Shown: positions 34,832 through 54,252 of the stretch, one piece after another
Position numbering within the stretch: the first letter of the stretch is position 1
How the letters are laid out: the number at the start of each line of letters is the position of its first letter
Assembly (NCBI GenBank): GCA_963678315.1
Contig: OY782781.1
Location: forward strand, 2,123,845-2,187,844
Source of the DNA: Candidatus Cloacimonadales bacterium
GTDB taxonomy: Bacteria; Cloacimonadota; Cloacimonadia; Cloacimonadales; JAFGVF01
Length of the DNA stretch: 64,000 nucleotides
Direction of reading: 5' to 3'
Notes under the pieces: generated by a model
Told to the model about the DNA's origin: nothing
What the model saw: only the letters and a program-made list of their open reading frames with translations
Databases searched by the model: none
Made by a program: the position numbers and the translations under genes

Positions 34832-35560
34832 TTAAATCACCCTAAACAAGAATACCATCTCACCTAAGATCCTGAAAGTCTCAAGTTCGTACTCTTCTAT
34901 TATTATTACATCAAAATCTGGATTTAAAGGTTTCAGGATAACCCTCTTCTTCTCATTATCGAATTGTAGCTTTTTAAGTGTCACTCCATCTGGAGTCTGA
35001 CAAGCACTAATCTTGCCATCAAGACAAGGAATATCCATACTCTCTTTGATTACGACTATATCCCCATGCATAATTTTAGGCTCCATACTCCTGCCATTAA
35101 TTTTGAGAGCAATATACTTATCCTGGCTGTCTGAAAGATATGCTTTAGGTATCTCAATATATTTTGATGGAGACTCATCATAACATTCTAATGGTTGACC
35201 TGCTGAAATCTCTCCATATATTGGGAGAGTAATATTTCTAGAATCGAATAGATTTAACTTATGTTTAAAAACAGAATTATTACCTGTTAACTCTTCAATG
35301 TTCTTTTTTTGACCTTCTCCATATAGATTGCCATCAGCATCAGCAACAAACATTCCACCTTTGCCAGTTAACAACCAATTTAAGTTCAAACCATAGCATT
35401 CATTTATTCTCGCCATGGCAGATGCCGAAGGTTTACTTGCTTTTTTTCTGTTCACCCAATCAGAAAGATTTCCTGGGGTTACCTCAATAGTTTTAGCAAA
35501 ATCGGATCGCTTTATGTCTAGTGCATTTACGAACATTAACAGCCTATCTTTTATGTCCAT
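34832..35560 (-). CDS. Prophage repressor: HTH (XRE-like) + S24 LexA-like autopeptidase
   Basis: Start preferred at MDIKDRLL (ATG 35560; RBS AGGAGA 5 nt upstream). HTH segment RSDFAKTIEVTPGNLSDWVNRKK. S24 Ser motif GRSMEP and Lys segment GVTLKKL. Confidence 0.88.
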   Translation of the reverse strand: MDIKDRLLMFVNALDIKRSDFAKTIEVTPGNLSDWVNRKKASKPSASAMARINECYGLNLNWLLTGKGGMFVADADGNLYGEGQKKNIEELTGNNSVFKHKLNLFDSRNITLPIYGEISAGQPLECYDESPSKYIEIPKAYLSDSQDKYIALKINGRSMEPKIMHGDIVVIKESMDIPCLDGKISACQTPDGVTLKKLQFDNEKKRVILKPLNPDFDVIIIEEYELETFRILGEMVFLFRVI

Positions 35561-35589
35561 TTCATCTCCTATGTTAAGCACAACTTAAT

Positions 35590-35660
35590 ATTCGCATGTG
35601 TGCATAGTTATGCGAATGACTGAATTCTTTCCTTGACTTCATTCGCATTTATATTATACT
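35590..35660. promoter_or_regulatory. Lysogeny-switch region: palindromic operator plus early promoter
   Basis: ATTCGCAT (35590-35597) -N12- ATGCGAAT (35610-35617). A third ATTCGCAT half-site (35641-35648) lies inside the 16-nt spacer of TTGACT (35633-35638) / TATACT (35655-35660), which faces the Ner-like gene. Confidence 0.65.
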
Positions 35661-35723
35661 AACTTTAAATATACATTCTTTGCAACATTGCGAACAGTGT
35701 CAATAAAAATTTAGGAGGTTCGG

Positions 35724-35966
35724 ATGAGATCACCGTACTATCCAGCTGAAATAAAGTCAGCTATGTCTCTTAAAAGCATTACTATTAGGGAAATGGCTGA
35801 ACAGCTTTTGGTCTCCAGGAGAACTATAGAATATTTTATTAATGAAGGTCGTAGACTAAGACAAGCACAGGTTTTCTTAGAATTACTACAGCCTGAGCTT
35901 CGCGAAATCAGTAAAATCTATCGCAAACACACTAACAAAGATATTATAAGCTCTGAAAAGAGATAG
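35724..35966 (+). CDS. Ner/Cro-like small HTH regulator
   Basis: 80 aa. HTH ITIREMAEQLLVSRRTIEYFIN. First gene of the early operon, divergent from the repressor. RBS AGGAGG. Confidence 0.75.
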   Translation: MRSPYYPAEIKSAMSLKSITIREMAEQLLVSRRTIEYFINEGRRLRQAQVFLELLQPELREISKIYRKHTNKDIISSEKR

Positions 35967-35968
35967 TT

Positions 35969-37987
35969 ATGAGATATAGAGAACTATCAATCGAAGAAAT
36001 ACAAAAATTATTTGTATTAAGTAAAGCAGCTGCATATCGAATGACTAAAGCACATGAATGGGATTTCATCAGCGAGACATTAAAGAAAGGTGGAAGAAAG
36101 AAACTATATTTAGTTCCTGCTGATGCAATACCTGAAGAAGAGGAGCTAGCTAGACTAGTTGAGAACTCTTCCCTACCTGATGATGTAGAGTCAGATTTAG
36201 TCGAGTTTGATAATCCAGTAAATGATTTTGTACCACAAATAGTATTTTCACAACATGAACTTTTAAGAGCTCAGTTAAAAGCTGAACTCTGTGAGAAAAT
36301 ATTATCTGAATATAAAAGACTAGGTGTTAAAAAGCATGCTGTTGATGAAGTGTTAGAAGTTTATAACTCAGGACTGTTATTACCAATATTATTCAAACTT
36401 GAAGGCTCTAGGACAGCACGTTCTATTCGTATGTGGCTTAAAGACTATGAAGATAATGGCAGAGACTATAAAGTTCTGATTCGTTTATCTAAAGCATCAA
36501 GTATTAAGAAAGCAACTCTTAAGGAACAGAACTTTTTACTGGGACTATTGTTAGATGCTAACAAAGTTAAGATTGGCACAGCTATTAGGAAGTTAAAGCA
36601 GTTTAGTAGACTTGGAGCTATTGAATCAGACACAAGTGGAAGAGCTCTTAGACGTTGGTGTGAAGAGTGGCGAGATAGTAACATACAACAGTGGAATATA
36701 CTTCGAATGGGAGAAAAATATTCTAAGGACAACTACATATTTAGCCTTACACGTTCAGATGAACTAAACGTAGGCGATGTATGGGTTGCTGATGGTCATC
36801 AACTAGCCTTTGATATTATTGATCCTGATTCAGGAAAGCCTAAACGTATGATGCTTTTACTATTTTTTGATTGGGCAAGTAGATATCCTGTTGGAGCTTC
36901 ACTTGCTAATACTGAAGACTCAGAGCATATCTTACTAGCATTAAGAAATGGTATCCTGCACTGGAATGGCAGACCTAAGTATGTCTATCTTGATAACGGT
37001 AGAGCTTTTAAATCTAAACTGTTCCATCAAAAATGGGATGAGCATAATCTTGAAGATGAATTCTGTGGAGTATTCCCAAGATTAGATATCAAAGCAGAAT
37101 TTGCTAAAGCCTATAATGCTAGAGCAAAGGTTGTTGAGAGATTCTTTAGAACATTCCAAGAAGATTTTGAACGCTCTATGAATACCTTTAGAGGTGCCAG
37201 TATAGCAGATAAACCTGCCTTCTTAATGAGAAACGAGAAGTGGATAAAAAAGCTCAAAAAACGTGAGCCTGTAACTATTGAAGAAGCCAAGAGTATGATG
37301 TCATTCTATTTTCAAGAGATGTATGGAAAAACACCCCATGGTGGACTTGCAGGTAAAACTCCTCTGGAAGTATTTAGAGCTAGTGAAGTACCTGAAGAGA
37401 GAAAGATTGAAGACTCTGAACTTAACTTCTTAATGTTGAAGATTGAGCAAAGGAAAATTAGAGCCAATGGAGTTCAGCTCTTCAGTATAGTCTATTATCA
37501 TGATTATCTCATGAACTATGTTGGGCAAAAAGTTTCACTACGCTATGATTTAATGGATATGCGATCAGTTTTAGTCTATGATAAAAATGGCAAGATTATA
37601 TGCCAGGCTTTAGCTAAGAAGAGTGTTCATCCATTTGTTAAACTTGCTGAGAATGAACCTTTAGCTAAAAAGCAATGGCTTAAACAACTAGCTCATCAAA
37701 GAAGATTAGAGAAAGATGTTAAAGAAAAATCAGCTCTAATCCAAAAGCAAGTTCAAGAGGCAATTTCAGAGTTTGAACTACCAATTCTTAAAATAACAAA
37801 CAGTGCTTTTAATGATTCAAGCATGTTAACACATAAAGCTACTTTTAATCCAAGCATTGACCTTGATAAAATGGCAGAAAGTACAGCACATATAATTTCA
37901 ACATCACAACAACTACCTATTAAAACAATAGAAGAACGAGGACTTGAGAATCTCGATAAAATGCTTAAACAGATCGGTATAGATTAG
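35969..37987 (+). CDS. MuA-like DDE transposase
   Basis: 672 aa. rve-type core with D275 (VWVADGH), D342 (YLDNGRAF), E390 (KVVERFF); the 67/48 spacing is close to MuA D269/D336/E392. N-terminal HTH-like DNA-binding region. Confidence 0.9.
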   Translation: MRYRELSIEEIQKLFVLSKAAAYRMTKAHEWDFISETLKKGGRKKLYLVPADAIPEEEELARLVENSSLPDDVESDLVEFDNPVNDFVPQIVFSQHELLRAQLKAELCEKILSEYKRLGVKKHAVDEVLEVYNSGLLLPILFKLEGSRTARSIRMWLKDYEDNGRDYKVLIRLSKASSIKKATLKEQNFLLGLLLDANKVKIGTAIRKLKQFSRLGAIESDTSGRALRRWCEEWRDSNIQQWNILRMGEKYSKDNYIFSLTRSDELNVGDVWVADGHQLAFDIIDPDSGKPKRMMLLLFFDWASRYPVGASLANTEDSEHILLALRNGILHWNGRPKYVYLDNGRAFKSKLFHQKWDEHNLEDEFCGVFPRLDIKAEFAKAYNARAKVVERFFRTFQEDFERSMNTFRGASIADKPAFLMRNEKWIKKLKKREPVTIEEAKSMMSFYFQEMYGKTPHGGLAGKTPLEVFRASEVPEERKIEDSELNFLMLKIEQRKIRANGVQLFSIVYYHDYLMNYVGQKVSLRYDLMDMRSVLVYDKNGKIICQALAKKSVHPFVKLAENEPLAKKQWLKQLAHQRRLEKDVKEKSALIQKQVQEAISEFELPILKITNSAFNDSSMLTHKATFNPSIDLDKMAESTAHIISTSQQLPIKTIEERGLENLDKMLKQIGID

Positions 37988-37995
37988 GAGATCAC

Positions 37996-38709
37996 ATGCG
38001 AGAATATACCTTAGCAAAAACCAACAACGTAAAAAAAGGCTACGAGCTTTTTGATTATCTAATTAACAGACCTAAAACTGAAATGGTTGGTCTTGGACTT
38101 ATATATGGTCCTCCAGGACTTGGTAAAAGCAGATTTGCACGCCAGACAGCTATTCAAAACAATTATATATATTTCAGATTAGAAGCTACTATGACAGCTA
38201 AAAGCTTTGCTAGTAGGTTACTTGAACGAATATACTTCCATTTTGGAATGCCTAAGATTGGTATAAAAGGAAGTGCTAACCTAATTTTTCAAAAATGCTT
38301 AGATATTTTGAGAAATATTGATAATACAATCATAATTATAGATGAGATAGATTATGCCTTTAAAGACAAAAAGGTTTTAGGCAGTATTCGTGATATTGTA
38401 GATGAAACATTGTCTATCATTATCCTTGTAGGAATGTCAGATGCTAAAGAGAGTCTACTATCAGCTGATGCTCATTACTTTGATAGATGCAACTTCTTCT
38501 GCCAGTTTAAACCACTTGATGTTAAGGATTTAACACTTTTATGTAAAGTGGCATGCGAAGTTGAAGTAGATGATATAGTTATTAAACATATAGCAAAAAG
38601 AACTAAAGGTAATATCAGGAAGTTTATAAAATCACTCTACTCTTTAGAAAACTTAGCTGAAGCTCAAAATCTTACAATTATAAAACCACAACATTTAAGC
38701 TCATTGTAG
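37996..38709 (+). CDS. MuB-like AAA+ transposition ATPase
   Basis: 237 aa. Walker A GPPGLGKS, Walker B IIIIDEID. Lies immediately downstream of the transposase. Confidence 0.85.
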   Translation: MREYTLAKTNNVKKGYELFDYLINRPKTEMVGLGLIYGPPGLGKSRFARQTAIQNNYIYFRLEATMTAKSFASRLLERIYFHFGMPKIGIKGSANLIFQKCLDILRNIDNTIIIIDEIDYAFKDKKVLGSIRDIVDETLSIIILVGMSDAKESLLSADAHYFDRCNFFCQFKPLDVKDLTLLCKVACEVEVDDIVIKHIAKRTKGNIRKFIKSLYSLENLAEAQNLTIIKPQHLSSL

Positions 38710-38718
38710 TAGGTAACC

Positions 38719-39819
38719 ATGGAAATATCTAATTTTAAGAAAGTAAGAAACTTTATTGAGTATTTTGGTAAGCCATTTACCTGCACAGTTGTTGCAGGTG
38801 AAACTGGTTTAACTAAAGTACAAGCGACCAAAGTATTGGGTAGAATGTTAACTAAAGGAATTATTAAAGCCATTTCTAAAGAAGGAAAATACGCTATCTA
38901 CGTTAAGAATAGCGATTATAAAGAATCAAATCTAGTTAACAGCTACAATTTTGAAATAAAATTTTTAAAGAACATTATCAAGAAATTGAAAAGTGGAGAC
39001 TTCACTAGTGCTAGGCAGATAGCAGAATCCCTTGGTTGTGAGAAGAAACGTTTAACACGTTATTTGGTAGCACTCTGTTCTATTGGAATAGTAGATGTTG
39101 TTGATAGACAATATAAAGTCGTTAAAGACATCGATCTACTTCTAGTTGGAAGTAAGTTTGATAAATTAATTTTAAAGAAACTCAAAGCCAAAAACGTTGA
39201 GTTTGAAGAAGGAGTAATAATGGGAAGAAAGGAGAAGATGCTATATGATGCTAATGGAAGAGAGTACCCAGCAAAGATACTTGATCCTCACATCGTAAAG
39301 AGAGATACAGTCGTTAATCGTCTTATGGGTAAAGCTATAAAACTACATGATAAAATTGAATCTGATAAGATTAAAATGGCTGAAGATATTGATAAGTATT
39401 TAACCCAGACAGCTCAGAAGTATGGAGAAGAGTGGAAAGGTAATGCAGAGTTAGTATCTTTTGATGGTAAGTACAAGGTTGAAATTAGACAAAGAGAGCA
39501 TATTGATTTCAGTGAAAAACTTCAAATAGCTAAACAGAAGATTGATGATTGTTTAAAGCGTTGGAGTGAAGATTCAAATATTAATCTTCAGGCTGTTATC
39601 AAAGAAGCCTTTCAAGTTGATAAGAAAGGAGAGATTGCTAAAAGCAGAATCTTAGGTCTTAGACGCTATAACATCAAAGATAAACAGTGGCAACAAGCAA
39701 TGGATTTAATCGATGAGGCTATCCAGGTAACTTCAACTAAACAGTATATCGCCTTTTATGAAAGAGCAAGCAAGGATAAGTCATTCAAGCTTGTCTCACT
39801 TAATTTTAGTGCATTATAG
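38719..39819 (+). CDS. Two winged-helix domains fused to a DUF3164-like (Mu-like prophage) domain
   Basis: 366 aa. wHTH-like segments GLTKVQATKVLGRMLTKGII and SARQIAESLGCEKKRLTRYLVAL. The C-terminal half (FDGKYKVEI..FSEKLQIAKQKIDDCLKRW..AFQVDKKGEI..ILGLRR) matches my recollection of DUF3164. Confidence 0.6.
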   Translation: MEISNFKKVRNFIEYFGKPFTCTVVAGETGLTKVQATKVLGRMLTKGIIKAISKEGKYAIYVKNSDYKESNLVNSYNFEIKFLKNIIKKLKSGDFTSARQIAESLGCEKKRLTRYLVALCSIGIVDVVDRQYKVVKDIDLLLVGSKFDKLILKKLKAKNVEFEEGVIMGRKEKMLYDANGREYPAKILDPHIVKRDTVVNRLMGKAIKLHDKIESDKIKMAEDIDKYLTQTAQKYGEEWKGNAELVSFDGKYKVEIRQREHIDFSEKLQIAKQKIDDCLKRWSEDSNINLQAVIKEAFQVDKKGEIAKSRILGLRRYNIKDKQWQQAMDLIDEAIQVTSTKQYIAFYERASKDKSFKLVSLNFSAL

Positions 39820-39829
39820 ATAATTTATC

Positions 39830-39881
39830 AGCAAAGTGACTGCTCCTAATCCTGGGAGTGTTTCTCTTTGCTTATTTTTTT
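39830..39881 (+). terminator. Possible early-operon terminator
   Basis: AGCAAAG (39830-39836) ... CTTTGCT (39866-39872) followed by TATTTTTTT. The large 29-nt loop makes it a weak call. Confidence 0.4.
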
Positions 39882-39951
39882 GTGGTAACTGTAGGCATCG
39901 AGGTTTGACGATATCCTCTAGTCTGTTTAGATAGCTCCAGGAGATATAAAT

Positions 39952-40164
39952 ATGGTACAAGTTTTTAATGAGAGCAGATGCTACACTCCAGTTGGAGTAG
40001 CAGAAATATTGAGTGTAGATATAAGTACAATCTACAGATTGATAAGAGACATTGATGATCCTCTTCCTGCATTTAGATTAAAGAATAATGGGCAGTTAAG
40101 AGTTCATGGAAAAGAAATCAACAAATACCTAGAAGATCATAAAGTTGATCCTCTTTACGAATAA
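39952..40164 (+). CDS. Small HTH_17/excisionase-family DNA-binding protein (possible middle/late regulator)
   Basis: 70 aa. YTPVGVAEILSVDISTIYRLIRD..LPAFRL pattern of MerR-like excisionase-family HTH proteins. Confidence 0.65.
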   Translation: MVQVFNESRCYTPVGVAEILSVDISTIYRLIRDIDDPLPAFRLKNNGQLRVHGKEINKYLEDHKVDPLYE

Positions 40165-40169
40165 ATAAA

Positions 40170-40553
40170 ATGACTGAAAGGCAGATTGAGTTAGCAAAGC
40201 GTTTGAGAAAGAAGATAGTTATTTTCGCAAAAAATGATCTCCGAATAACTATGGATGAACTTCATTATCAGATGCAAACTTTAGGATATGGAATATCTTT
40301 AAGAGCACTCAATCTGCCTTCTTTAGTTAACTTAAATCTTATCATCCGAGGAAAGCAAAACCATATCTATGAGAATCTTGATCCTCAAGGTAAGAAGATA
40401 TGGGCACTCTATAAATCATCTAATTGGAGTAAAGACCAGTTGTATGCATTTATAGCTCAGAAATTTAGCAAATCAGGAATCAAATATCTAACCAAAAATG
40501 AAAAAGGAACTTTAATTAAAGTCTTACAATCTTATGAACTCAAGAGAATATAA
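40170..40553 (+). CDS. Mu gp16/GemA-like (DUF1018-like) protein
   Basis: 127 aa. Position and weak C-terminal resemblance (QLYAFIAQKFSKSGIKYLTKNEKGTLIKVLQSY) to DUF1018. Tentative. Confidence 0.4.
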   Translation: MTERQIELAKRLRKKIVIFAKNDLRITMDELHYQMQTLGYGISLRALNLPSLVNLNLIIRGKQNHIYENLDPQGKKIWALYKSSNWSKDQLYAFIAQKFSKSGIKYLTKNEKGTLIKVLQSYELKRI

Positions 40554-40995
40554 AATAAAACGTATATCAGCTAAAAAGCTCTATCTTAAGGGTGAAACTA
40601 ATGCAGTAGCACTTGCTAAGATTTATGATGTTGCCGAAAAGACAGTCAGGAACTGGATTAAGAAAGGTAACTGGGAAGCTGAACATGATGAGATAGCATC
40701 TCTTGAAGACAAGATTAAGATAGCTCTTAAGAAGGCTTTAATTAAAGCTCTAACAGAATATGCGAGAGCACCACAAGACACTGCTCTTCAATCTTTAGTA
40801 TCACTGCTTAGACAGTACAAGAAAGATTTCGAACCTACCAAAGACTTTATCGAATATATGAAAAAGTTCTTAGATTGGCTTGTTGATTATTTCTTAACTA
40901 AAAATGATGATGAAATAGCCAGATCAATTCAAAAAGAAATTTTAGGAGAATCTGGTATTGTAGAATATTTTAGAAAGAGAGCAAGTAGTGGTTAA
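40534..40995 (+). CDS. Mu gp27-like (DUF1804-like) HTH protein, probable small terminase subunit
   Basis: 153 aa. N-terminal HTH (AVALAKIYDVAEKTVRNWIKKGNWE). Lies immediately upstream of, and overlaps, TerL. Confidence 0.5.
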   Translation: MNSREYKIKRISAKKLYLKGETNAVALAKIYDVAEKTVRNWIKKGNWEAEHDEIASLEDKIKIALKKALIKALTEYARAPQDTALQSLVSLLRQYKKDFEPTKDFIEYMKKFLDWLVDYFLTKNDDEIARSIQKEILGESGIVEYFRKRASSG

Positions 40996-42532
40996 GATTA
41001 CTCAAAAAGATTATAAGAACTTTTCGGACATTGCTTCCAAAACTTCCAGTGTGAAACCATTTCAAAATGATACACCTACTAAACAGAAGCAAAGAATAAG
41101 AAAGGCTACTGGTGAAAACTGGTCAGCCTTCTCTTATTTTTGTGTAAGTTATTTTCCTCATATTTTCAAACTAGCATTTGTAGATGCTCATCAGGAGATG
41201 TTTGAGATTACTGAAAAGTATAACGGTGTAACATCTATTACAGGTTTTAGAGGACTAGGTAAGACAGTTCTGATGGGTGTAGTCTACCCTATCTGGAAAA
41301 TTATTAAAGGTGAGAGATATATTATTCACACTGCTGCTGATGCAGATTTAGCAGAAGAGAGAACATCATTTACTTATAATGAGTTAACTCAGAATAAAAG
41401 ACTTCAGCTTGATTTTGATGGGATTATGCCAGTTGATAGAGATGAATCAGATTTCTATCTTCAGAACAAGTGCAGAATAAGAGCTAGAGGTATTAAGCAA
41501 TCTTTTAGAGGAAGTATTAACCCTAGAACCTCTACAAGACCAGGACTAGTTATCTGTGATGATATTGATAAAGAGGAAAACATTGGTAATCAATCCATTG
41601 GTAAGAAGAAGATGGATAAGATTATTCAAGAGATTGGTGGAGCATTGAACCCTTCAGGAGATGGTAAAATAATCTGGCTTGGTAATCTAGTACATCCTAA
41701 TTATGCAATCTGTCAATTCCAACAAGACATCATTGATGAGTTAAAATCAGAGATCAAAGAGTTTAATCCAGAGAATGTCAAACATCTCTATGGCTTGGAA
41801 AAGCGACTCTTGAGATTTCCATTAGAGAATCAAGATGCACAAAGCGTCTGGGAAGAACAATATCCAACTGAAGAATTACCAAAGCTGAAGAAGAAGTTTG
41901 GCTTAACAGGATATCAAAGAGAATTTTTAGGAAAACCAGTAATTGAAGGAAACATGTTCAAGTTCCACTGGTTTATGAAATATACTACTATTCCCAAAAG
42001 ATTTAAAAGAATATGGATGTATGCAGATCCTGCTTGGGGAGAAAAAGGTTGTTACAAGGCTATTATTTCTATTGGTTATGATGGTTATAAGTTCTATGTA
42101 CTCCATATCTGGATTAGGCAGACCGAGAACAGTAAGTTCTTTAGTTACTACTATGATGCCTACTCAGAATTATCCAGGAAGTATGGAGTCAGATTTAGAG
42201 CTGCAATTGAGACTAATTTTGGTCAACACAGGATATTAGCTGATTTTGATAGATGGTGTAAAGAGAACAATCGCCATCCAATATCACATAGAATCAGAAG
42301 AATCAACAATGATAAAAATAAAAATCTTAGAATTGAAAGAACAGATACTACAATCGAAACAGGTAAAGTGCAATTTCCAGATGGTCAAGATACTCCCACT
42401 CTTATAAACCAGTATTTAACATATCCAGATGGTTATGTAGATGGCCCTGATGCCTTAGCTGGCTGTTTAGAGAGATTCCCAGAATATGACACTGGAAAAT
42501 CTAGAGTCAGAGTTAGGAGTTTTTCGTTTTGA
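40988..42532 (+). CDS. Phage terminase large subunit
   Basis: 514 aa with a GTG start. Walker A-like GFRGLGKT, Walker B GLVICDDID, and a C-terminal RNaseH-like nuclease half with conserved acidic residues (YADPAWG..., DGPDALAG). Confidence 0.8.
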   Translation: MVKITQKDYKNFSDIASKTSSVKPFQNDTPTKQKQRIRKATGENWSAFSYFCVSYFPHIFKLAFVDAHQEMFEITEKYNGVTSITGFRGLGKTVLMGVVYPIWKIIKGERYIIHTAADADLAEERTSFTYNELTQNKRLQLDFDGIMPVDRDESDFYLQNKCRIRARGIKQSFRGSINPRTSTRPGLVICDDIDKEENIGNQSIGKKKMDKIIQEIGGALNPSGDGKIIWLGNLVHPNYAICQFQQDIIDELKSEIKEFNPENVKHLYGLEKRLLRFPLENQDAQSVWEEQYPTEELPKLKKKFGLTGYQREFLGKPVIEGNMFKFHWFMKYTTIPKRFKRIWMYADPAWGEKGCYKAIISIGYDGYKFYVLHIWIRQTENSKFFSYYYDAYSELSRKYGVRFRAAIETNFGQHRILADFDRWCKENNRHPISHRIRRINNDKNKNLRIERTDTTIETGKVQFPDGQDTPTLINQYLTYPDGYVDGPDALAGCLERFPEYDTGKSRVRVRSFSF

Positions 42533-43407
42533 CATATTTTGATAAGCTTATTTACCAATACTACCAAGTTTTGAACAACTCCTGGAAGAAGGAAATCAAA
42601 GATTCAGCCAAGCAAGCTCTTCAGATGCTAGCAGATATCCCAAAACATGAAAGAATAAATAAGAGCCATATAGACGACATCTTAAACATAATAGCCTCCA
42701 ACATGGGAGAAGACTTTTCATCGCTTGTACGCACCGATACGAAGGCTTTCATCAAAAGAAACCTCCTATTAGGTCTTAGTGATGCCAAGAAACAAGTGCC
42801 AAATAATATATCGATAGGAATATATGGAATCAGAGAAAACAAATTAGAAACTCTCATCACTAAACAAAATCTCTTCTGGATAGGAAATAAGTATGGCACA
42901 GATATCGAAACCAGATTCAAGAACACACTTAAAGAATCGGTATCTTCAGGATTTACCAAAGAGATGCTTGCTAATAAGCTAAAAGAAGAGTTCAAATCTC
43001 TTGGAGATAAGAATCAACACTACTGGCAAGGTTTAGCTGAGCATACAGCCCTTAGAATACGAGAATTTGGAAGATTAGAAGGATATCATAAAGCAGGAGC
43101 TACAGGCTACAGGCTTGTTGTTGTACTTGATGATAGAACATCAGAGATTTGCAGAGCTTTAGCAAGCCAGGACAAAGTATATCCTGTAGATACTGCTATT
43201 GATACTATGAACCAGCTATTAAGCATAAATACCAATAAACACTCCTTAGACACAGTTAGAGAAATGACTAAGCAGATAGCTCCTTGGGTTTCTGATAAAC
43301 AAATAAAAAGAGACCCAACTGGTAATCCAATTGGAGTCTCTGTAAATTATTCACCTTTCCCGCCATTTCATTGGAGATGTAGGACTACTACTGAAATTGT
43401 TTATTAG
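42529..43407 (+). CDS. Phage head morphogenesis protein, MuF/SPP1 gp7 family
   Basis: 292 aa. C-terminal DDRTSEICRAL ... PPFHWRCRTT motif characteristic of Phage_Mu_F. Overlaps TerL by 4 nt. Confidence 0.8.
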   Translation: MTYFDKLIYQYYQVLNNSWKKEIKDSAKQALQMLADIPKHERINKSHIDDILNIIASNMGEDFSSLVRTDTKAFIKRNLLLGLSDAKKQVPNNISIGIYGIRENKLETLITKQNLFWIGNKYGTDIETRFKNTLKESVSSGFTKEMLANKLKEEFKSLGDKNQHYWQGLAEHTALRIREFGRLEGYHKAGATGYRLVVVLDDRTSEICRALASQDKVYPVDTAIDTMNQLLSINTNKHSLDTVREMTKQIAPWVSDKQIKRDPTGNPIGVSVNYSPFPPFHWRCRTTTEIVY

Positions 43408-43411
43408 CAAA

Positions 43412-44422
43412 CTATCCTTTAGTGCAATATTTTATGTATTCTTCTGTAAAACTATTAGATAGTTCTGTATCTTCATAAATAATATCAAATTGGTTACTTA
43501 AATAAGCTCTACACATTGTTTTAACTTCCCTTTGCCCAGCTATATGAATTACTTTCTGCTCAATTTTCAGATTTAATTTTTTTGCAGTATGACTTTGGGT
43601 ACCAATAATAATTCCTCTGTCAACTTTATCTCTAACAAGAATCTCAATCATCCTTTGTTTTACTTGTTTGGTTACCTCTCTATTGTACCAGTTTTTTATT
43701 TCAACATAAATAGCTTCAGATGTAATTGGATCTTCTAGTATTAAGTCTTTTCCTCCATCTTTACTACTAGGTGTAAGAAAAGTTTTATACCCCAATCCTT
43801 CAAATAATTCTGCAAATAAATGTTCAACATTCCTCCAATCTATTTTTTTAAAAATGTTACCATCTCTAACAAGTTCATGAATTAAAGATTTACAAGCATT
43901 CCTAATTATCATATAATATGGAGATTTGTTTAACTCATCATATTTCTCAATAGTTCTTAATAATCCATTCTCCCATAATCTAATTAGTTGGTCATACACT
44001 ATATGTGCTTTTCGTATAAATAACTCTTGGGGGATCTTTTGAGAAAAATCATCAGGTAAGAAGTTTTCTAACAGAATAGAGTTAAGCCTTAAACTATTTC
44101 TAAGCTTTTTGATTTGCAATGGTAATTTATTCTCATTTTCAACATCTAACATAATAACAGTCACAGGAATATCATGTGAAGTAGCATATTGTAACTCAGT
44201 CTCAACTAAGGTATGCCCCCATGCATCTCTAATTGAAGGTAATTCAGACCCTATTATAAAGCCAAAATGATTGGATAAATCAATCAAAGATTTAACATCT
44301 CGTGATTCTTCTCCATTTTTTTCTAAAACTGTATATCCTAATCTAGTTAAAACTTCTCTAACTATGTCTCGAACAAAAGGTGATAGTCCTGTAAAAGGAC
44401 CTGAAATGAATACATTTTTCAA
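43412..44422 (-). CDS. DUF4062 (TIR/NDT-like) N-terminal domain fused to an Mrr_cat-type PD-(D/E)xK restriction-endonuclease domain
   Basis: 336 aa with a TTG start; RBS AGGAG overlaps the stop of the upstream gene. N-terminus: VFISGPF..REVLTRLGY..FIIG..LVETELQYA..IPVTV. C-terminus: WRNVEHLFAELFEGLGY..SSKDGGKDL..IYVEIKNW..GIIIGT. Confidence 0.7.
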   Translation of the reverse strand: MKNVFISGPFTGLSPFVRDIVREVLTRLGYTVLEKNGEESRDVKSLIDLSNHFGFIIGSELPSIRDAWGHTLVETELQYATSHDIPVTVIMLDVENENKLPLQIKKLRNSLRLNSILLENFLPDDFSQKIPQELFIRKAHIVYDQLIRLWENGLLRTIEKYDELNKSPYYMIIRNACKSLIHELVRDGNIFKKIDWRNVEHLFAELFEGLGYKTFLTPSSKDGGKDLILEDPITSEAIYVEIKNWYNREVTKQVKQRMIEILVRDKVDRGIIIGTQSHTAKKLNLKIEQKVIHIAGQREVKTMCRAYLSNQFDIIYEDTELSNSFTEEYIKYCTKG

Positions 44423-44432
44423 ATATTAACTC

Positions 44433-44918
44433 CTAATTTCTTTTATCTATCATATCTTCAATTTCTGCATCCTGAATTTTATCTCTCGCGAAACTTATTG
44501 GAAATAAACTTAATATCAAACTCCAAATTAATAGTAGAGTCTGTATTGATATGAGTGAAAATAATACACCTCTGAATATTAATTTGTAGGAGAAAAGATT
44601 TTTAAATTGGTAAACTAAAGGACTAAAGACACTAAACAGTAAACTAAAAATTATTATCAATGTAGAATAAAGTAATGGTTTTGATAACCTGTCGAAATTT
44701 TCTACTTTTCGATATTTACCATCATATGCTACTTTTAGTAATTCTGGCTGTATAATTGCAATCCAAGCTCCCATTATACCAAATATTATTGCCGATGTTG
44801 TTCTTAGTGATTCAAGGGTTGCAAATTGATTAGAAACTGGAATTTTCATTCCTAGAAAAAAAGAACAAATTGCGATAAGAGTTATCATAACAATAAAAAT
44901 TAATGTTTTTATTTTCAT
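44433..44918 (-). CDS. Small integral membrane protein, four predicted TM helices
   Basis: 161 aa. Hydrophobic stretches at about 5-24, 41-58, 83-103 and 115-140, with a charged C-terminal tail DKIQDAEIEDMIDKRN. 2-nt gap to the upstream gene. Confidence 0.75.
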   Translation of the reverse strand: MKIKTLIFIVMITLIAICSFFLGMKIPVSNQFATLESLRTTSAIIFGIMGAWIAIIQPELLKVAYDGKYRKVENFDRLSKPLLYSTLIIIFSLLFSVFSPLVYQFKNLFSYKLIFRGVLFSLISIQTLLLIWSLILSLFPISFARDKIQDAEIEDMIDKRN

Positions 44919-44920
44919 TA

Positions 44921-45961
44921 TTAGTCCTCAATTCTTGAAAAGATGATCTTTCTTTTAGCTGTTAGAGCTTCTTTTAGTGAATTAATATCATATAATTCTG
45001 TACTCTTATGAGTAACATCAATATCTAGTTCCCCTTTGACTATACTCTTACTTAACCAGTACGTTTCTCTATCTCCTTCTAAATTGAATCCTATATCGGA
45101 TATTGTACTTTCATCTTTATTTTGCCACATGTTTAAAAGATCATTCACGTTGTTTTCGCTTGGATTGTAATTCGATTCATACTTAAAGTTCAGAACTTTA
45201 TTAGATACCTTATTAATATCGTGAATCCCTGTGAATTTCAGGAAAGATTGAATAACATTTAAATCCTTTTCAATCTGTATATCTAACTTCATCTTAGTAA
45301 TTAGTTTTCTGACATCTGAAAATCTACTCTTTAGTAAATCTAGTTGACCACCCAATAATAGAAGATGAGACTCAAAAAAAGGATAGATAAGTTCATTCTG
45401 TTTGAAATGTTCTAGGTTCTCAATGCTAGGAGTTTTAATCCTAAAATTCTCTATCCTCTTCTCTTTAACAAATTTTGAATGAAATTGTAAAAAACTCTGC
45501 AAATAATGACAAAACTGTCTATTTCCGTTAACAATATGATTAAATCTAACAGTTAAATAAATGTTCTTCGAAGGAAGTATCCAAAAGTAGGTACCATATC
45601 CAGGTACATAACCCTCTTCAAATTTAGTATCTTTCACATCTGCTTGATCAATAGGCTTAGTTGAGTTAATAGCACTAACACTATTATCTGTTGTTGGTGT
45701 TTCATTCCAAGTTGTAAGGAATATATCCCCATACTCATTTTTTGTGATATCTGCACAAAAAGTTCTCATTATGTTTGAATTTTCTTGAGGATTTCCGTAA
45801 GTACAAGTCTCAGCTATGGTTTTATCATTTCTTTTTACCCATTCTATTAAATCATTGAAAATAATATCGCTAGTACCTGATAAAGACCTTTTATCTCCAT
45901 AATGATAATATCCACATTTCTTGATATTAAAGTATCTTAGTTTTGCTTTTTCATTCATCAT
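44921..45961 (-). CDS. Hypothetical 346-aa protein, no recognisable family; first gene of the three-gene cassette
   Basis: RBS AGGAGG 6 nt upstream of the ATG. No P-loop, DxD nucleotidyltransferase, HTH or nuclease motif found by eye. Confidence 0.75.
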   Translation of the reverse strand: MMNEKAKLRYFNIKKCGYYHYGDKRSLSGTSDIIFNDLIEWVKRNDKTIAETCTYGNPQENSNIMRTFCADITKNEYGDIFLTTWNETPTTDNSVSAINSTKPIDQADVKDTKFEEGYVPGYGTYFWILPSKNIYLTVRFNHIVNGNRQFCHYLQSFLQFHSKFVKEKRIENFRIKTPSIENLEHFKQNELIYPFFESHLLLLGGQLDLLKSRFSDVRKLITKMKLDIQIEKDLNVIQSFLKFTGIHDINKVSNKVLNFKYESNYNPSENNVNDLLNMWQNKDESTISDIGFNLEGDRETYWLSKSIVKGELDIDVTHKSTELYDINSLKEALTAKRKIIFSRIED

Positions 45962-46085
45962 TAACCTCCTATTTCATTAGGTACACCTGTAAACCAAGTG
46001 AAGTATATACCTTCAAAACTACATAGCTACTACTTTTAACAAACCTTGCTATAATATTATGCTCAAAATCTTTTTGATTAAAGTT

Positions 46086-46120
46086 GAGCTCTACCATTCA
46101 GTAGAGCTCCTATATTTTTT
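46086..46120. terminator. Strong hairpin between the cassette promoter region and the S8-protease gene end
   Basis: 9-bp stem GAGCTCTAC / GTAGAGCTC (46086-46094 / 46101-46109) with T7 at 46114-46120 on the plus strand. Both neighbouring genes are on the minus strand, so the orientation is ambiguous. Confidence 0.45.
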
Positions 46121-46130
46121 GCTTATGATT

Positions 46131-49100
46131 CTACTTAATTAGCAAACATTTCTTCACAACTGCTTGCTTATTTGATTCAAGTTTATAGAAATACATACCT
46201 GATGCTACTTTTTTATTTTGATTATTATTTCCATTCCATACAATTTGATATTGACCTTTTTCCATGTCACTGTCGAGTAATGTTTTTACCTTTTGTCCTC
46301 TTACATTGTAAATATTTAGTTTAACTCGACTTTTTTGTGGTATGAAATACCTTATATTTGTTGAGGGGTTGAATGGATTAGGATAACAATTATAAAGTAC
46401 TGGTTTTAAAGGAATAACTTGGCTTTGTGTATTCTCTGGATTCCTAAGTGAAGCCAATATTTTTCTTGTATTCATTATATGATCGTTTCTTGAGCGTGGC
46501 ATTAGGCTTGAGTATTTTGTCGTACATTTACCACCACTTTCCAGCCAAGCAGATCCCATATCAATTACAGCAAAACAGGAATCATTATATGTTGGTGGAG
46601 ACTCAATTATACTAGCATAATGATCAATGGCACCTTGGAAATTATAAATTAATCTATTACAAAGTGCTTTAGTGTTTAATAACTCTCTTCTAAAGTCATT
46701 TTGATTTGGATATGATATCAGTTTAGCATCAATCCATTCAATTAAGTCTGGTACTTGATTAGTTTTAGAATGACATACTGTTATACCTTTAAGCACCTGA
46801 AAATCAGCATCTGTTAGAAGAGAATCATTAAGTACTTGGTAGTAATATTGTATTGCCATATCCCAGTTACTATTTATTCTGGCATTCTCAGCTAAATAGA
46901 ATGGCTCATTCATCCCATCCCTACCGGCACTACCATTAGGAGTTGTTAACCAATGATCATAGTTGATGTCTTCATACTGACTAAAGGTGCTCTTTATATC
47001 AGTTTCATTGGTATGTCCCCACCAATTCTGGTCAGCTTTAATCTGACTTTTCATATTTTCTGTTACAATGTTTAATTGACCAGCTTGTATGTTTGTGAAA
47101 TTATTAAATCCTTCATGAAGATAAGGTTGTGATTGTACAGCTAGCAATCCTACACCATTATCAGATATTTTGTTTTCTCCTGTTCCGTTATAGGCAAGAT
47201 AAGGAACTGCACTTTTATAAGAAGCAATCCCAATATCCGAGTTAAGAATTTTGTCATGTCCAAAATCTACAAGGACATCATAAGCTAATATTGAAACTTC
47301 ATTATTATTTAATATGCTGTTTTTTAGGACGTAAGTTCCGTTATCATACATTTCCAAACCTATTTCAGCATTGGATAGATAAGTATTATTCACTATTAAT
47401 GAAGAATTATTAACAGATGATATCCCTAACCAATGATCCTGAATTGTATTTGGGCACATACCTTTAACAACAACAGGATAGAGTTCTGTTCCGTTAAAAT
47501 GAAATTCCCCATTATTATTTATAAAGTTCTTATTCCTAATACGAATTTCGATTCCTGGATTAACCTTAACACCAACTCCTGGATCTATACATATGTTTTT
47601 ATTTATCACCACATCTTGCCTAATATGAATACTTTCATCCACAACACTCGGGATATTATACAGATACTGAGCAGTGTTCCTTTCATTGTTTGAAAATTGA
47701 GTCCATTCATCCATTTCGTCAATATTATTATTCTTTATTGGAATCCTATAAATCTTTGCCTCATTTGTATCCTGATTACCAACCAATACATATAAATCTC
47801 TTATACTTGTAGAAAAAGCTGATCCAATTGCCATTGACTTAATATTAGCAAAGAAGTTTATGTTATAGCTTTGAAGAGGTTCTTCATTAACTTGATATAC
47901 TGAGAGTTCATTGTCTTTTGATAAAACAACATCTTGTATGTTACTTTCTCCAAGATCTGCAAGAAGTGATGGCCTCCTATTCTTATGATAGTATCCACCA
48001 TTTTCAGAGGAATAATCGTTGGTTGTATGATTAATTCTATAGCCTTGTTCAACATCAAGAACTTCTTCTGAGGCTGTTGTTAAGATTTCAATTCCAAAGT
48101 TGTCAGGATAGAAATCTCCTGCAATAATTTTGCCAGGGGTTAAGTCAATATTATCAATTTCATCAATTGGAGATGGAGTATTGTCAACATGAGACCAGAT
48201 TTGAACTGGGTCTTCATCTCCAAAGTCATAACAGTAGGTAGTATAACTAGTAGTCCTCTCGATTCCCGGATGAAAATCTTTTGTAATCCCAAAAAATAGG
48301 CGATTATGATAAACTGGTTCGTCAGGATTAGTAAACTGAGGTTTAACCAAAAGCAAGTTAGTAGAGCGTAAGTTAGTTATTGAATCTATACCTGGGTCAA
48401 TTACCCATTCGATGTCCCCTACATTGACATAATCATCTTTCGAACCACTCACAAAATTACCTTTAAAGATACCTACCCAATTATCACTACCATTATTACT
48501 ACCACTTACGACAGCAGTAAATTCACGGTAAAGAGTTTGATCAACATTTCCAACAGCCATTTCAGAAAGAAAGCGAGAACCATTTATAGTGTAATATTCA
48601 GTTTCAAGATCTGTACTAGGATAATTGTGTTGTGTTATTGTTCCATAAAATCCTGAATCATTATCGTAATCATTTCCATTAACCAGAATATCCATCCTTC
48701 CATTACCAGTCAGGTCATCAACGATAAGCGACTTAACATCTCCTGAAAGTTGGTTACTAAATGTAATTGGATACTGATTAATATCATCTAGATTTGAATC
48801 ATAAGCATACACGGTTACTGCATTGGTCACAAAAACTACTTCAGCATTATCTCCATATATTATATCACCAAAGGCTGGTTTTGTAATTATAGAGTCATTA
48901 ACTATTTCCATAAATAAATGTGAATTACGATATAAACATGCAAAGTATTCAAAGCTATCATTAATTGGCTTCTTCAAACCAAAAGCTAATTCATCAAGAC
49001 CATCATTATTCATATCAAATATTGCAACTTCTGAAGTTAACTGATATGTTGATAGGTCTACTAATTCTTCTAACTTAGGTACACATGGCACCTCAAAATA

Positions 49101-52352: not shown

Positions 52353-52778
52353 ATGAGAATAGATATACATACAGTTTTAAGAGTCTTAAACCTACCTGAA
52401 GATGAAAAGATAGCACAACTTTTAGAAGAACACTCTGAGAGTGCTGTAGGCTGGTTTAGAAAAGTAGCTGAATCCTCAGTACTTGAATCTCTTACAGACT
52501 ATAAGATGTCTTATTCTTTTTTCTTATTATCTCAAGTATTAGACTTTCTAAACCTTAAAACTCTTGGTTCTGGTATTATTAAGACTACGGGTATTGATGC
52601 ACAAGTAACTGAACTTCTTACTGGTAGTGAGATTAGAGCTTATAAAAAGGATTTAGAGATTCGTTCTTTAGAGACTATTTATGATTATCTTACTCCTCTT
52701 GGTATTAAGCGTTTAGATGAACTTAAGTTTGGAAGCAAAGCAGTTAAACACCATAGAACTAGGGCAACTGTAATATGA
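52353..52778 (+). CDS. Phage protein, possibly head-tail connector/adaptor
   Basis: 141 aa. The call rests on size and position; family not confidently recognised. Confidence 0.45.
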   Translation: MRIDIHTVLRVLNLPEDEKIAQLLEEHSESAVGWFRKVAESSVLESLTDYKMSYSFFLLSQVLDFLNLKTLGSGIIKTTGIDAQVTELLTGSEIRAYKKDLEIRSLETIYDYLTPLGIKRLDELKFGSKAVKHHRTRATVI

Positions 52779-53239
52779 GTGTAAATAGTGAAATATTAAA
52801 AGCTATTTATACTTCAATAGAGAGTAAACTACACCTCATAGGTAGTGTTATTGAGGGCAAAGCTAGAAGACTTATACTAGAGAAAGGTATTAAAGATAAA
52901 GGTGATTTCTATCAAAACACAAGCTATGCTGTAAGCTTTAACAGCTCTTCTATTGACCTGGTTGTAGGATCTAATGTACCTCATGAGCAATATGTTCTAG
53001 GTGGTAAAGTTCCCTCCTGGACTCCAATCCAGCCACTTAAAGATTGGGTTGCTCGTAAAGGCTTAGACTGGGTTGATAAGAAGACAGGTGAACAACTTAC
53101 TATTGAGAACATTGCCTATATGATTAGAGGAAAGATAAAACGTGAGGGTGTGCCTGAACGTAATGTCTTTGCAGAGGTTATCCAAAACCAAGAGAAGTGG
53201 ATTTTTAGTCAGTTAGATTCTATTGAGGTAATACTATGA
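52775..53239 (+). CDS. Phage protein, possibly HK97 gp10-like neck/tail-completion protein
   Basis: 154 aa. VGSNVPHEQYVLGGKVPSWTPIQPLKDWV vaguely resembles the gp10-family Y.xxVExGt..P motif. Tentative. Confidence 0.4.
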   Translation: MSVNSEILKAIYTSIESKLHLIGSVIEGKARRLILEKGIKDKGDFYQNTSYAVSFNSSSIDLVVGSNVPHEQYVLGGKVPSWTPIQPLKDWVARKGLDWVDKKTGEQLTIENIAYMIRGKIKREGVPERNVFAEVIQNQEKWIFSQLDSIEVIL

Positions 53240-54250: not shown

Positions 54251-54252
54251 GT

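What the first reader, a model, noticed from the sequence alone, without database searches (positions are those of the whole stretch)
43412..45961. Three-gene antisense cassette inside the prophage: orphan 346-aa protein + 4-TM protein + DUF4062(TIR-like)-Mrr nuclease; candidate undescribed anti-phage system
Three co-directional minus-strand genes are packed with 2-nt and 10-nt gaps; the RBS of gene 3 overlaps the stop of gene 2, and gene 3 starts with TTG. The cassette begins 5 nt after the stop of the plus-strand MuF gene, exactly where a Mu-like phage should carry its protease/scaffold and capsid genes. Gene 1 (346 aa) has no motif I can assign: no P-loop, no GS..DxD nucleotidyltransferase signature, no HTH. 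Gene 2 is a 161-aa protein of four hydrophobic helices with a charged tail. Gene 3 joins a DUF4062-like module (fold related to TIR/nucleoside deoxyribosyltransferase, frequent at the N-termini of STAND/Avs-type defence proteins) to an Mrr_cat-like PD-(D/E)xK nuclease. An unknown sensor-sized protein plus a small membrane protein plus a nuclease/TIR-like effector, embedded in a prophage, is the typical grammar of abortive-infection and defence operons. The combination does not match any named system I know (Kiwa, CBASS, Pycsar, Thoeris and Zorya were considered).
Basis: partly seen in the sequence, partly recalled or inferred. Interest (0 to 1): 0.85.

Follow-up and report, generated by a model that had tools for sequence, protein, structure and literature searches.

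The report
Known candidate defence pair plus nuclease
The first two genes are a two-gene candidate anti-phage module that is already catalogued (PADLOC PDC-M18, resembling phage lambda RexA/RexB), and the third is a rare, probably separate, defence-type gene that joins a TIR-like (DUF4062-like) domain to an Mrr nuclease, so the cassette is a small defence island and not an undescribed three-gene system.

Summary
The three minus-strand genes exist as described: 346/345 aa, 161 aa and 336 aa, with 2-nt and 10-nt gaps and a TTG start whose RBS overlaps the preceding stop.

**Genes 1 and 2 are already catalogued.** They match PADLOC PDC-M18A (2e-84) and PDC-M18B (4e-39) over their full length. PDC-M18 is the same as P4-hotspot system 4 ('RexA + 4TM') of Rousset et al. 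2022. That system was cloned and gave no validated protection against eight coliphages. The A-B pair is widespread, with 570 clusters at 50% identity. B follows A in 76 of 84 loci. The pair sits next to R-M and Abi genes and inside temperate phages. A confident model of A best matches CENP-N, a fold class that includes RexA and RdgC. Direct sequence links to RexA and RexB failed.

**Gene 3 is not part of that system.** It has no homologue in any of the 84 loci. That position holds unrelated defence genes elsewhere. Gene 3 carries an intact Mrr D-ExK nuclease domain and a divergent DUF4062/TIR-like N-terminus. Its Glu74 aligns with the catalytic Glu of the Swarozyc NADase.

**Setting.** The cassette lies at the edge of a truncated Mu-like remnant and has a much younger history than that remnant (dS 0.03-0.08 against 0.8-1.0).

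Interest is moderate.

The parts
45962..46130 (-). Upstream intergenic region, presumed to hold the promoter of the cassette. It contains the hairpin at 46086-46109 that ends the upstream S8 peptidase gene, and the RBS AGGAGG at 45970-45965.
   Evidence: Sequence. Hairpin. The region is 95.9% identical to the sister genome, as conserved as the cassette and unlike the Mu-like genes. No promoter was demonstrated: promoter-like hits were no more frequent than in shuffles.
44921..45961 (-). Gene 1: a PDC-M18A family protein (346 aa, probably 345 aa starting at 45958). It is cytoplasmic and has two domains, and is the putative RexA-like sensor or DNA-binding component.
   Evidence: PADLOC PDC-M18A 2.1e-84 over the full length. 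No Pfam hit. 570 homologue clusters, all about 340 aa. AlphaFold2 pLDDT 91.8. Best PDB fold hit is CENP-N, E 5e-4. Five phage proteins of 277-322 aa match at E 6e-9 to 3e-5.
44433..44918 (-). Gene 2: a PDC-M18B family protein, 161 aa, with four transmembrane segments and a charged C-terminal tail. It is the putative membrane effector.
   Evidence: PADLOC PDC-M18B 3.7e-39. Hydropathy. A homologue lies directly after A in 76 of 84 loci, with gaps of about -14 to +21 nt. Conserved TM2 motif IIFAV.GAW.AI.YPE.
43412..44422 (-). Gene 3: a 336-aa fusion protein with a TTG start, specific to this lineage. It is probably a separate single-gene defence candidate.
   Evidence: The only full-length homologue is the sister-strain copy. 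All other hits cover the Mrr half only. 0 of 84 M18 loci contain a homologue.
44093..44422 (-). Gene 3 residues 1 to about 110: a divergent DUF4062/TIR-like (NDT superfamily) domain. The candidate catalytic residue is Glu74, in LVETELQYA.
   Evidence: The top PDB sequence hit is KpSwz TIR/DUF4062 (E 0.1, colinear 4-104 against 8-110), and E74 aligns with the catalytic Glu (E97 according to the preprint read). Pairwise BLASTP gives 1e-7. The only tblastn hits in 7.3 Gb of plasmids are one DUF4062 and two DUF4406 proteins, E 1-3. Pfam PF13271 was not hit at E<=1.
43580..43849 (-). Gene 3 residues 192-281: an Mrr_cat PD-(D/E)xK nuclease domain with an intact motif, SKDGGKD(226)L ... VE(241)IK(243).
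   Evidence: Pfam Mrr_cat 2.4e-15, 57 bits against a cut-off of 21. In the alignment of 28 homologues, S220, K221, D222, G223, G224, K225, D226, E241, K243 and W245 are invariant and all present in gene 3.
43304..43335 (-). Terminator-like hairpin followed by a T-run on the minus strand, about 80 nt past the gene 3 stop and inside the 3' end of the convergent MuF gene. It may be the end of the cassette transcript.
   Evidence: Consensus scan only (4 sites found against 1.0 expected in shuffles). Not demonstrated.
34832..43407 (.). Neighbouring truncated Mu-like element: S24 repressor (minus strand), MuA, MuB, DUF3164, HTH, TerS, TerL, MuF. No portal, capsid or tail genes follow. This is context and not part of the system.
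   Evidence: Pfam and PHROG hits. Synonymous divergence from the sister genome is 0.83-1.0 for MuF and TerL, against 0.03-0.08 for the cassette. Identity jumps at about 43400.

Best explanation
The cassette holds two adjacent defence-type units that are probably transcribed together.

(1) Genes 1 and 2 are a member of the catalogued but functionally unproven two-gene candidate system PDC-M18. By analogy with lambda RexAB and P. putida RexABpp, I infer the following. The cytoplasmic A protein has an N-terminal beta-sheet domain, a hinge, an alpha/beta domain and a C-terminal helix. It would sense a phage-induced DNA or protein-DNA intermediate. It would then activate the four-helix membrane protein B, which would permeabilise or depolarise the membrane and abort the infection.

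(2) Gene 3 is a lineage-specific single-protein unit. It has a DUF4062/TIR-like domain (candidate NADase, Glu74) fused to an active-looking Mrr PD-(D/E)xK nuclease. I infer that it acts on its own, like the Swarozyc and Evangelion proteins (a DUF4062 core plus a C-terminal auxiliary domain) or like a type IV restriction nuclease.

Shown here: family membership, A-B linkage, absence of gene 3 from other loci, intact motifs, and defence or phage neighbourhoods. Inferred: sensing, membrane action, NADase and nuclease activity, and any protection at all.
For: - Full-length PADLOC hits for A and B.
- PDC-M18 equals P4-hotspot system 4, annotated 'weak homology to RexA; 4 TM in protein 2'.
- B follows A in 76 of 84 loci from at least seven phyla, often with overlapping stop and start codons.
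- The gene downstream of B is variable and often a defence gene: Abi_C, MmeI-type R-M, DUF4238, GmrSD, AAA_13 ATPase, DUF488. Flanking genes are enriched in type I R-M, helicases and integrases.
- A-B pairs occur in temperate phages. In Pseudomonas phage Ps59 the pair is downstream of, and co-oriented with, the repressor. In Burkholderia phage phiBt-TXDOH it lies next to attP and the integrase.
- The model of A is confident (pLDDT 91.8). Its best PDB match is CENP-N (E 5e-4). The RexA structure paper places RexA, RdgC, IML3/CENP-L and CHL4/CENP-N in one fold class. The domain order of A is colinear with RexA.
- RexABpp was validated in P. putida with the same architecture.
- Gene 3: plus the DUF4062 NADase literature.
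- All three genes are under purifying selection.
Against: - The E. coli PDC-M18 homologue (pFR81) appears only among the 'additional tested systems', not the validated ones, after challenge with eight coliphages.
- None of 131 A proteins hit Pfam RexA. hhalign of the A profile against a RexA profile gives probability 1.2%. RexA (8TWQ) and RdgC are not in the top 50 Foldseek hits, and TM-scores to CENP-N are low (0.22).
- B shows no sequence similarity to RexB.
- The 10-nt gap and the RBS overlapping the stop codon link gene 3 tightly to gene 2. All three genes also share one recent history. Functional coupling therefore cannot be excluded.
- The DUF4062 assignment rests on weak scores, and the structure model of gene 3 was unusable (pLDDT 43.5).
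Confidence: 0.6

Rival explanations
1. The three genes form one integrated system. The A protein senses infection and drives both the membrane protein and the DUF4062-like/Mrr protein as effectors.
For: - Gaps of 2 nt and 10 nt, an RBS overlapping the preceding stop codon, and no internal terminator.
- The same arrangement in the sister genome.
- All three genes and the upstream spacer form one high-identity block (96.8-98.6% DNA identity; dS 0.03-0.08).
- A few other M18 loci also carry a tightly spaced third gene: L020 at 10 nt and L055 at 7 nt. Rousset lists an 'occasional' third protein.
Against: - Gene 3 has no homologue in 84 related loci.
- The nearest relative (A 82% identical, B 71%) has an unrelated Abi_C gene in that position.
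- The tightly spaced third genes elsewhere are unrelated to each other, and at least DUF4238, GmrSD and MmeI-type R-M enzymes act as stand-alone defence genes.
- The high-identity block also runs about 800 bp into the S8 peptidase gene, so it is not specific to the cassette.
Confidence: 0.13
2. Genes 1 and 2 are not a defence system. They would be a prophage or mobile-element accessory pair with another role, for example modulating the lysis-lysogeny switch (as RexA also does) or a membrane function. The defence-island association would be incidental.
For: - No protection was validated for the E. coli homologue.
- RexA has a RexB-independent role in the lambda switch (abstract).
- Many neighbours of the pair are housekeeping genes such as GlyRS, RNR and GGDEF/EAL proteins.
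Against: - PADLOC lists the pair as a defence candidate.
- The pair occupies the P4 defence hotspot in 169 E. coli loci.
- It is repeatedly adjacent to R-M, Abi, GmrSD and DUF4238 genes.
- A pair with the same architecture was validated in P. putida.
Confidence: 0.15
3. Gene 3 is simply a type IV-like (Mrr family) restriction nuclease. Its N-terminal domain would be a non-catalytic sensor or regulatory module, not a NADase.
For: - The Mrr half is the conserved part of a family whose N-termini vary (iREase-like, cold-shock domain, others).
- Weak PADLOC hits to mREase_IV and PDC-S02.
- Pfam DUF4062 was not hit.
Against: - The N-terminus aligns over the whole DUF4062 domain of KpSwz, with the catalytic Glu conserved.
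- In the DUF4062 systems described so far, that domain is the effector and the C-terminal region is the sensor.
Confidence: 0.3

Closest known systems
PDC-M18 (PADLOC phage-defence candidate), equal to P4-hotspot system 4 'RexA + 4TM' of Rousset et al. 2022 (PMC9122126)
   Same: Genes 1 and 2 hit the A and B profiles over their full length. They have the same order, the same tight coupling, the same sizes (about 340 aa and about 170 aa) and four TM segments in B.
   Different: This copy comes from a low-GC genome that is probably Cloacimonadota. It is only 24% identical to the E. coli A protein over the N-terminal half. It carries an extra co-directional gene. The family has no demonstrated phenotype.
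Phage lambda RexA/RexB, and RexABpp of P. putida (PMC11077077, PMC12894663)
   Same: A cytoplasmic A gene is followed by a small four-TM B gene. The pair is carried by temperate phages and prophages, in Ps59 downstream of the repressor. A has a colinear two-domain layout and a best fold match in the RdgC/RexA/CENP-L/N class.
   Different: There is no significant sequence or profile similarity to RexA or RexB. RexA itself was not recovered by Foldseek. A is about 65 residues longer. Here the pair is not next to the repressor.
Swarozyc (KpSwz) and Evangelion (Eva01): single-gene DUF4062 TIR-like NADase defence systems (bioRxiv 10.64898/2026.05.01.722283 and 10.64898/2026.06.25.731849)
   Same: Gene 3 has an N-terminal DUF4062-like domain of the same length, with the VF(I/V)S..F start and the catalytic Glu aligned. 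A C-terminal auxiliary region follows, in a protein of about 330 aa.
   Different: The Pfam DUF4062 model does not reach E<=1. The auxiliary part is a recognisable, catalytically intact Mrr nuclease, whereas the described AUX regions 'lack recognizable conserved domains'. Gene 3 sits in an operon with PDC-M18.
Mrr / type IV methyl-directed restriction endonucleases, and PADLOC PDC-S02
   Same: An Mrr_cat domain with an intact D...ExK motif. Weak hits to mREase_IV and PDC-S02.
   Different: There is no Mrr_N winged-helix DNA-binding domain. The N-terminus is TIR/NDT-like instead. Only two such sequences were found.
Kiwa (KwaA four-TM protein plus KwaB DUF4868)
   Same: A small four-TM protein paired with a cytoplasmic protein of about 300-350 aa.
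   Different: The gene order is reversed. Neither protein gives a DUF4868 or Kiwa profile hit. Rousset lists Kiwa as a separate system in the same P4 hotspot.

Membership tests
PDC-M18 (PADLOC) | Protein A matches a PDC-M18A profile | tested here: met
   PDLC04494 at 2.1e-84, residues 2-342 against profile positions 1-336 of 339. Five further M18A profiles also match.
PDC-M18 (PADLOC) | Protein B matches a PDC-M18B profile | tested here: met
   PDLC04500 at 3.7e-39, residues 1-158 against 1-162 of 174.
PDC-M18 (PADLOC) | A and B are adjacent and co-directional, with A first | tested here: met
   The gap is 2 nt. The same arrangement is found in 76 of 84 related loci.
PDC-M18 (PADLOC) | Anti-phage activity | not testable with these tools
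   The E. coli homologue pFR81 is listed only among the 'additional tested systems', not the validated ones.
RexAB (lambda type) | The A protein belongs to the RexA family (Pfam PF15969) | tested here: not met
   0 of 131 family members hit PF15969 at E<=1. hhalign of A1 against a 24-sequence RexA alignment gives probability 1.2%, E 0.044.
RexAB (lambda type) | The A protein has the RexA/RdgC-type two-domain fold | tested here: inconclusive
   The best PDB hits are CENP-N (E 5e-4, probability 0.93, but TM 0.22). 8TWQ and 2OWL are not in the top 50. The link to RexA rests on the literature and on a colinear domain order.
RexAB (lambda type) | The B protein is a small four-TM membrane protein encoded directly downstream | tested here: met
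   Gene 2 has four hydrophobic segments in 161 aa, against four in the 144 aa of RexB. There is no sequence similarity.
RexAB (lambda type) | Exclusion of superinfecting phage through loss of membrane potential | not testable with these tools
   This needs an experiment.
DUF4062 TIR-like NADase defence proteins (Swarozyc / Evangelion) | Match to the Pfam DUF4062 (PF13271) model | tested here: not met
   No hit at E<=1.
DUF4062 TIR-like NADase defence proteins (Swarozyc / Evangelion) | Sequence similarity to a solved DUF4062 domain, with the catalytic Glu conserved | tested here: inconclusive
   KpSwz is the top hit among 177,635 PDB sequences, but only at E 0.1. Pairwise BLASTP gives 1e-7 with 27% identity over 104 columns. 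E74 aligns with the catalytic Glu. The structure model was too poor to test the fold.
DUF4062 TIR-like NADase defence proteins (Swarozyc / Evangelion) | A C-terminal auxiliary region in a single polypeptide | tested here: met
   Residues from about 135 to 336 follow the domain. Here, however, they form an Mrr nuclease.
Mrr-type PD-(D/E)xK restriction nuclease | Mrr_cat domain scoring above the Pfam gathering score | tested here: met
   57.1 bits against a cut-off of 21, E 2.4e-15.
Mrr-type PD-(D/E)xK restriction nuclease | Catalytic D ... (E/Q)xK residues present | tested here: met
   D226, E241 and K243 are invariant in 28 homologues and present in gene 3.
Kiwa | KwaB with DUF4868 and a KwaA profile match | tested here: not met
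   Gene 1 has no Pfam hit. PADLOC gives no Kiwa profile among the hits at E<=1 for gene 1 or gene 2.

The most novel reading that the evidence does not exclude
PDC-M18 is a modular platform. The RexA-like sensor and the four-TM protein would recruit a variable third effector encoded immediately downstream. In this lineage that effector would be a dual NADase/nuclease protein (DUF4062-like plus Mrr), giving a three-component abortive-infection system with membrane, NAD+ and DNA outputs.
Probability: 0.12. Interest if true: 0.7.

Novelty: new variant of a known kind. Interest (0 to 1): 0.4.

Why it matters
- PDC-M18 is widespread: 570 clusters at 50% identity, in many phyla, and in temperate phages and the P4 hotspot. 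It still has no proven function.
- Linking its A protein to the RexA/RdgC/CENP-N fold class gives a concrete and testable mechanism. It would also extend the Rex paradigm well beyond enterobacterial lambdoid phages.
- Gene 3 is a rare natural fusion of two defence modules, a DUF4062-type TIR-like domain and an Mrr nuclease. It could show how the recently described DUF4062 NADases are coupled to DNA sensing or cleavage.
- For annotation, the result shows that this 'orphan' cassette is recognisable with current defence-system profiles.

Tried and rejected
- **Pfam and NCBIfam on gene 1:** nothing found. Pfam on 131 family members also gave no RexA hit.
- **Sequence and profile search of PDB with gene 1 and alignment A1:** only chance hits.
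- **hhalign of A1 against lambda RexA and against a RexA alignment:** not significant.
- **hhalign of the B alignment against RexB:** nothing.
- **Foldseek of the A model:** it did not list RexA or RdgC. The BFVD hits are unnamed phage proteins.
- **AlphaFold2 of gene 3:** pLDDT 43.5, and the Foldseek search on that model was meaningless.
- **Search for Mu-type terminal inverted repeats to delimit the prophage:** nothing convincing in this AT-rich DNA.
- **Testing whether P. putida RexApp (PP_5643) belongs to PDC-M18A:** The question remains open.
- **The HAD-hydrolase + 3TM system of Rousset:** considered and rejected. It is a different construct (pFR97), and gene 1 has no HAD hit.
- **Kiwa:** rejected.
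Full report
**Observation**

The window has three co-directional minus-strand ORFs at 45961..44921 (346 aa), 44918..44433 (161 aa) and 44422..43412 (336 aa, TTG start). They are separated by 2 nt and 10 nt. The sequence shows AGGAGG 3 nt before the first ATG of gene 1 and 6 nt before the second. The 345-aa form recorded in the protein collection is therefore the likelier product. The AGGAG for gene 3 overlaps the TAG stop of gene 2 and lies 7 nt before the TTG. The gene 3 stop is 4 nt from the stop of the convergent MuF-like gene. Gene 2 has four hydrophobic segments and a charged tail. The description is correct.

**Genes 1 and 2**

Pfam and NCBIfam find nothing for gene 1. PADLOC profiles match both proteins over their full length: PDC-M18A at 2.1e-84 and PDC-M18B at 3.7e-39.

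The Domainator paper equates PDC-M18 with system 4 of the P4-satellite hotspot of Rousset et al. 2022. [quoted passage not shown] It also lists an 'occasional' third protein. The system was cloned as pFR81, 'RexA + 4TM'. It appears in Table S2B, 'additional tested systems', and not among the validated ones. Gene 1 is homologous to the E. coli protein (BLASTP 1e-9).

**Distribution and linkage**

An exhaustive phmmer search found 570 clusters at 50% identity with E<=1e-3, and 173 with E<=1e-30. Nearly all of the best 150 are about 340 aa long. A scan of one genome per species returned 80 loci. They come from Pseudomonadota, Desulfobacterota, Cyanobacteria, Bacteroidota, Spirochaetes, Campylobacterota and Bdellovibrionota.

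A gene 2 homologue lies directly after A in 76 of 84 loci. The gaps are mostly -14 to +21 nt, and the stop and start codons often overlap. A gene 3 homologue occurs in none of the 84.

In the closest relative, a Candidatus Cloacimonetes MAG, A is 82% identical and B 71% identical. There the pair sits beside a type I R-M fragment. It is followed by an Abi_C gene and by a 336-aa protein unrelated to gene 3.

Elsewhere the position downstream of B holds an MmeI-type R-M enzyme, DUF488, DUF4238, an AAA_13 ATPase or GmrSD. Among 148 flanking proteins, type I R-M subunits, ResIII and SNF2 helicases, SMC-like ATPases and integrases recur, alongside housekeeping genes.

A-B pairs are also carried by temperate phages. 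In Pseudomonas phage Ps59 the pair lies downstream of the repressor and in the same orientation. In Burkholderia phage phiBt-TXDOH it lies next to attP and the integrase.

**Is the pair Rex-like?**

The AlphaFold2 model of gene 1, built from 131 sequences, is confident (pLDDT 91.8, pTM 0.89). It has an N-terminal beta-rich domain, a lower-confidence linker at about residues 167-190, a beta-alpha repeat domain and C-terminal helices.

This order is colinear with RexA. RexA has a globular beta-sheet domain at 1-139, a hinge, a dimerisation domain at 143-234 and a C-terminal helix.

Foldseek against the PDB ranks human CENP-N first (E 5e-4, probability 0.93), but with a low TM-score of 0.22. RexA and RdgC are not in the top 50. 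The RexA structure paper reports that RexA shares its fold with RdgC, IML3/CENP-L and CHL4/CENP-N. The link is therefore indirect.

Direct tests failed:
- No member hits Pfam RexA.
- Profile-profile comparison with 24 RexA homologues gives probability 1.2%.
- B has no detectable similarity to RexB.

A RexAB-type pair with the same architecture was shown to defend P. putida through membrane damage. I could not establish whether that pair belongs to PDC-M18. The Rex-like mechanism is my preferred inference, but it is not demonstrated.

**Gene 3**

The C-terminal half is an Mrr_cat nuclease (2.4e-15). The motif residues that are invariant in 28 homologues, including D226, E241 and K243, are all present. 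These homologues share only the nuclease half and have varied N-termini.

The N-terminal 110 residues have no Pfam hit. Their best match among all PDB sequences is the DUF4062 TIR-like domain of KpSwz (E 0.1). The match is colinear over the whole domain, and Glu74 falls on the catalytic Glu.

A pairwise comparison for this pre-stated hypothesis gives E 1e-7. The only three weak tblastn hits in 7.3 Gb of plasmids are one DUF4062 protein and two DUF4406 proteins. From my own knowledge, DUF4406 belongs to the nucleoside deoxyribosyltransferase clan.

Preprints from 2026 show that DUF4062 is a TIR-like NADase. They describe single-gene abortive-infection systems, Swarozyc and Evangelion, built from a DUF4062 core and a C-terminal auxiliary region. 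Neither preprint's main text mentions an Mrr or any other nuclease.

The structure model of gene 3 was too poor to use. Apart from the sister-strain copy, no protein with this fusion was found.

**Setting**

Upstream on the plus strand lie an S24 repressor, MuA, MuB, DUF3164, TerS, TerL and a MuF-like gene. No portal, capsid or tail genes follow. The genes after the cassette encode an S8 peptidase and another protein, both with T9SS sorting domains.

A sister genome has the same order. Against it, the Mu-like genes are 75-87% identical in DNA. The three cassette genes are 96.8-98.6% identical, and their upstream spacer is 95.9% identical.

Identity jumps at about 43400, exactly at the MuF/gene 3 junction. 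It stays high until about 46900, inside the 3' end of the peptidase gene.

Synonymous divergence is 0.03-0.08 for the cassette and 0.83-1.0 for MuF and TerL. dN/dS is 0.18-0.36 for the three cassette genes.

The three genes therefore share one recent history that differs from that of the Mu remnant. They lie at its truncated edge and are not demonstrably inside a prophage.

**Verdict**

The cassette is a small defence island. It consists of a new member of the catalogued candidate system PDC-M18 and a rare DUF4062-like/Mrr fusion gene that is most likely independent. The claim of an undescribed three-gene system is not supported. What is left to find out is the unproven function of PDC-M18 and the unusual architecture of gene 3.

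Noticed in passing
window 53611-54321 (with 52353-53610): A portal-like ORF, preceded by three small co-directional ORFs, is cut off at about residue 211 (near 54243), where homology to the sister genome ends. In the sister genome the portal gene is 393 aa. A sigma-70-like gene (54253-55212, minus strand) abuts the break.
   Followed up: partly
window 40988-43407: The TerL-like gene overlaps the start of the MuF-like gene with no portal gene between them. This is unusual for Mu-like or SPP1-like head modules. The element keeps its transposition and packaging genes but has no structural genes, so it is a remnant or possibly a satellite-like element.
   Followed up: partly
window 38719-39819: A single 366-aa ORF joins an HTH/TrmB-like N-terminus to DUF3164. 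The sister genome has two separate genes here (161 aa and 199 aa). This is a gene fusion, or a frameshift difference between the strains.
   Followed up: no
window 46131-50753: Compared with the sister genome, the 1540-aa S8 peptidase gene is a mosaic of blocks that are nearly 100% identical and blocks that are 54-84% identical. This suggests repeated recombination within the gene.
   Followed up: partly
window 46269-46386 and 61778-61895: Inverted repeats of 35-57 nt (72-80% complementary) link the 3' ends of two large, oppositely oriented genes for T9SS cargo proteins (1540 aa and 1483 aa). They probably reflect the shared C-terminal sorting domain.
   Followed up: no
L088 (Pseudomonas phage Ps59) 1901-5072: The order is repressor, two small genes, an M18A homologue, then a TM protein. 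This is the same layout reported for the validated RexABpp locus of P. putida prophage P1, where the pair also follows the repressor after two intervening genes. It hints that RexABpp may be a PDC-M18 member.
   Followed up: partly
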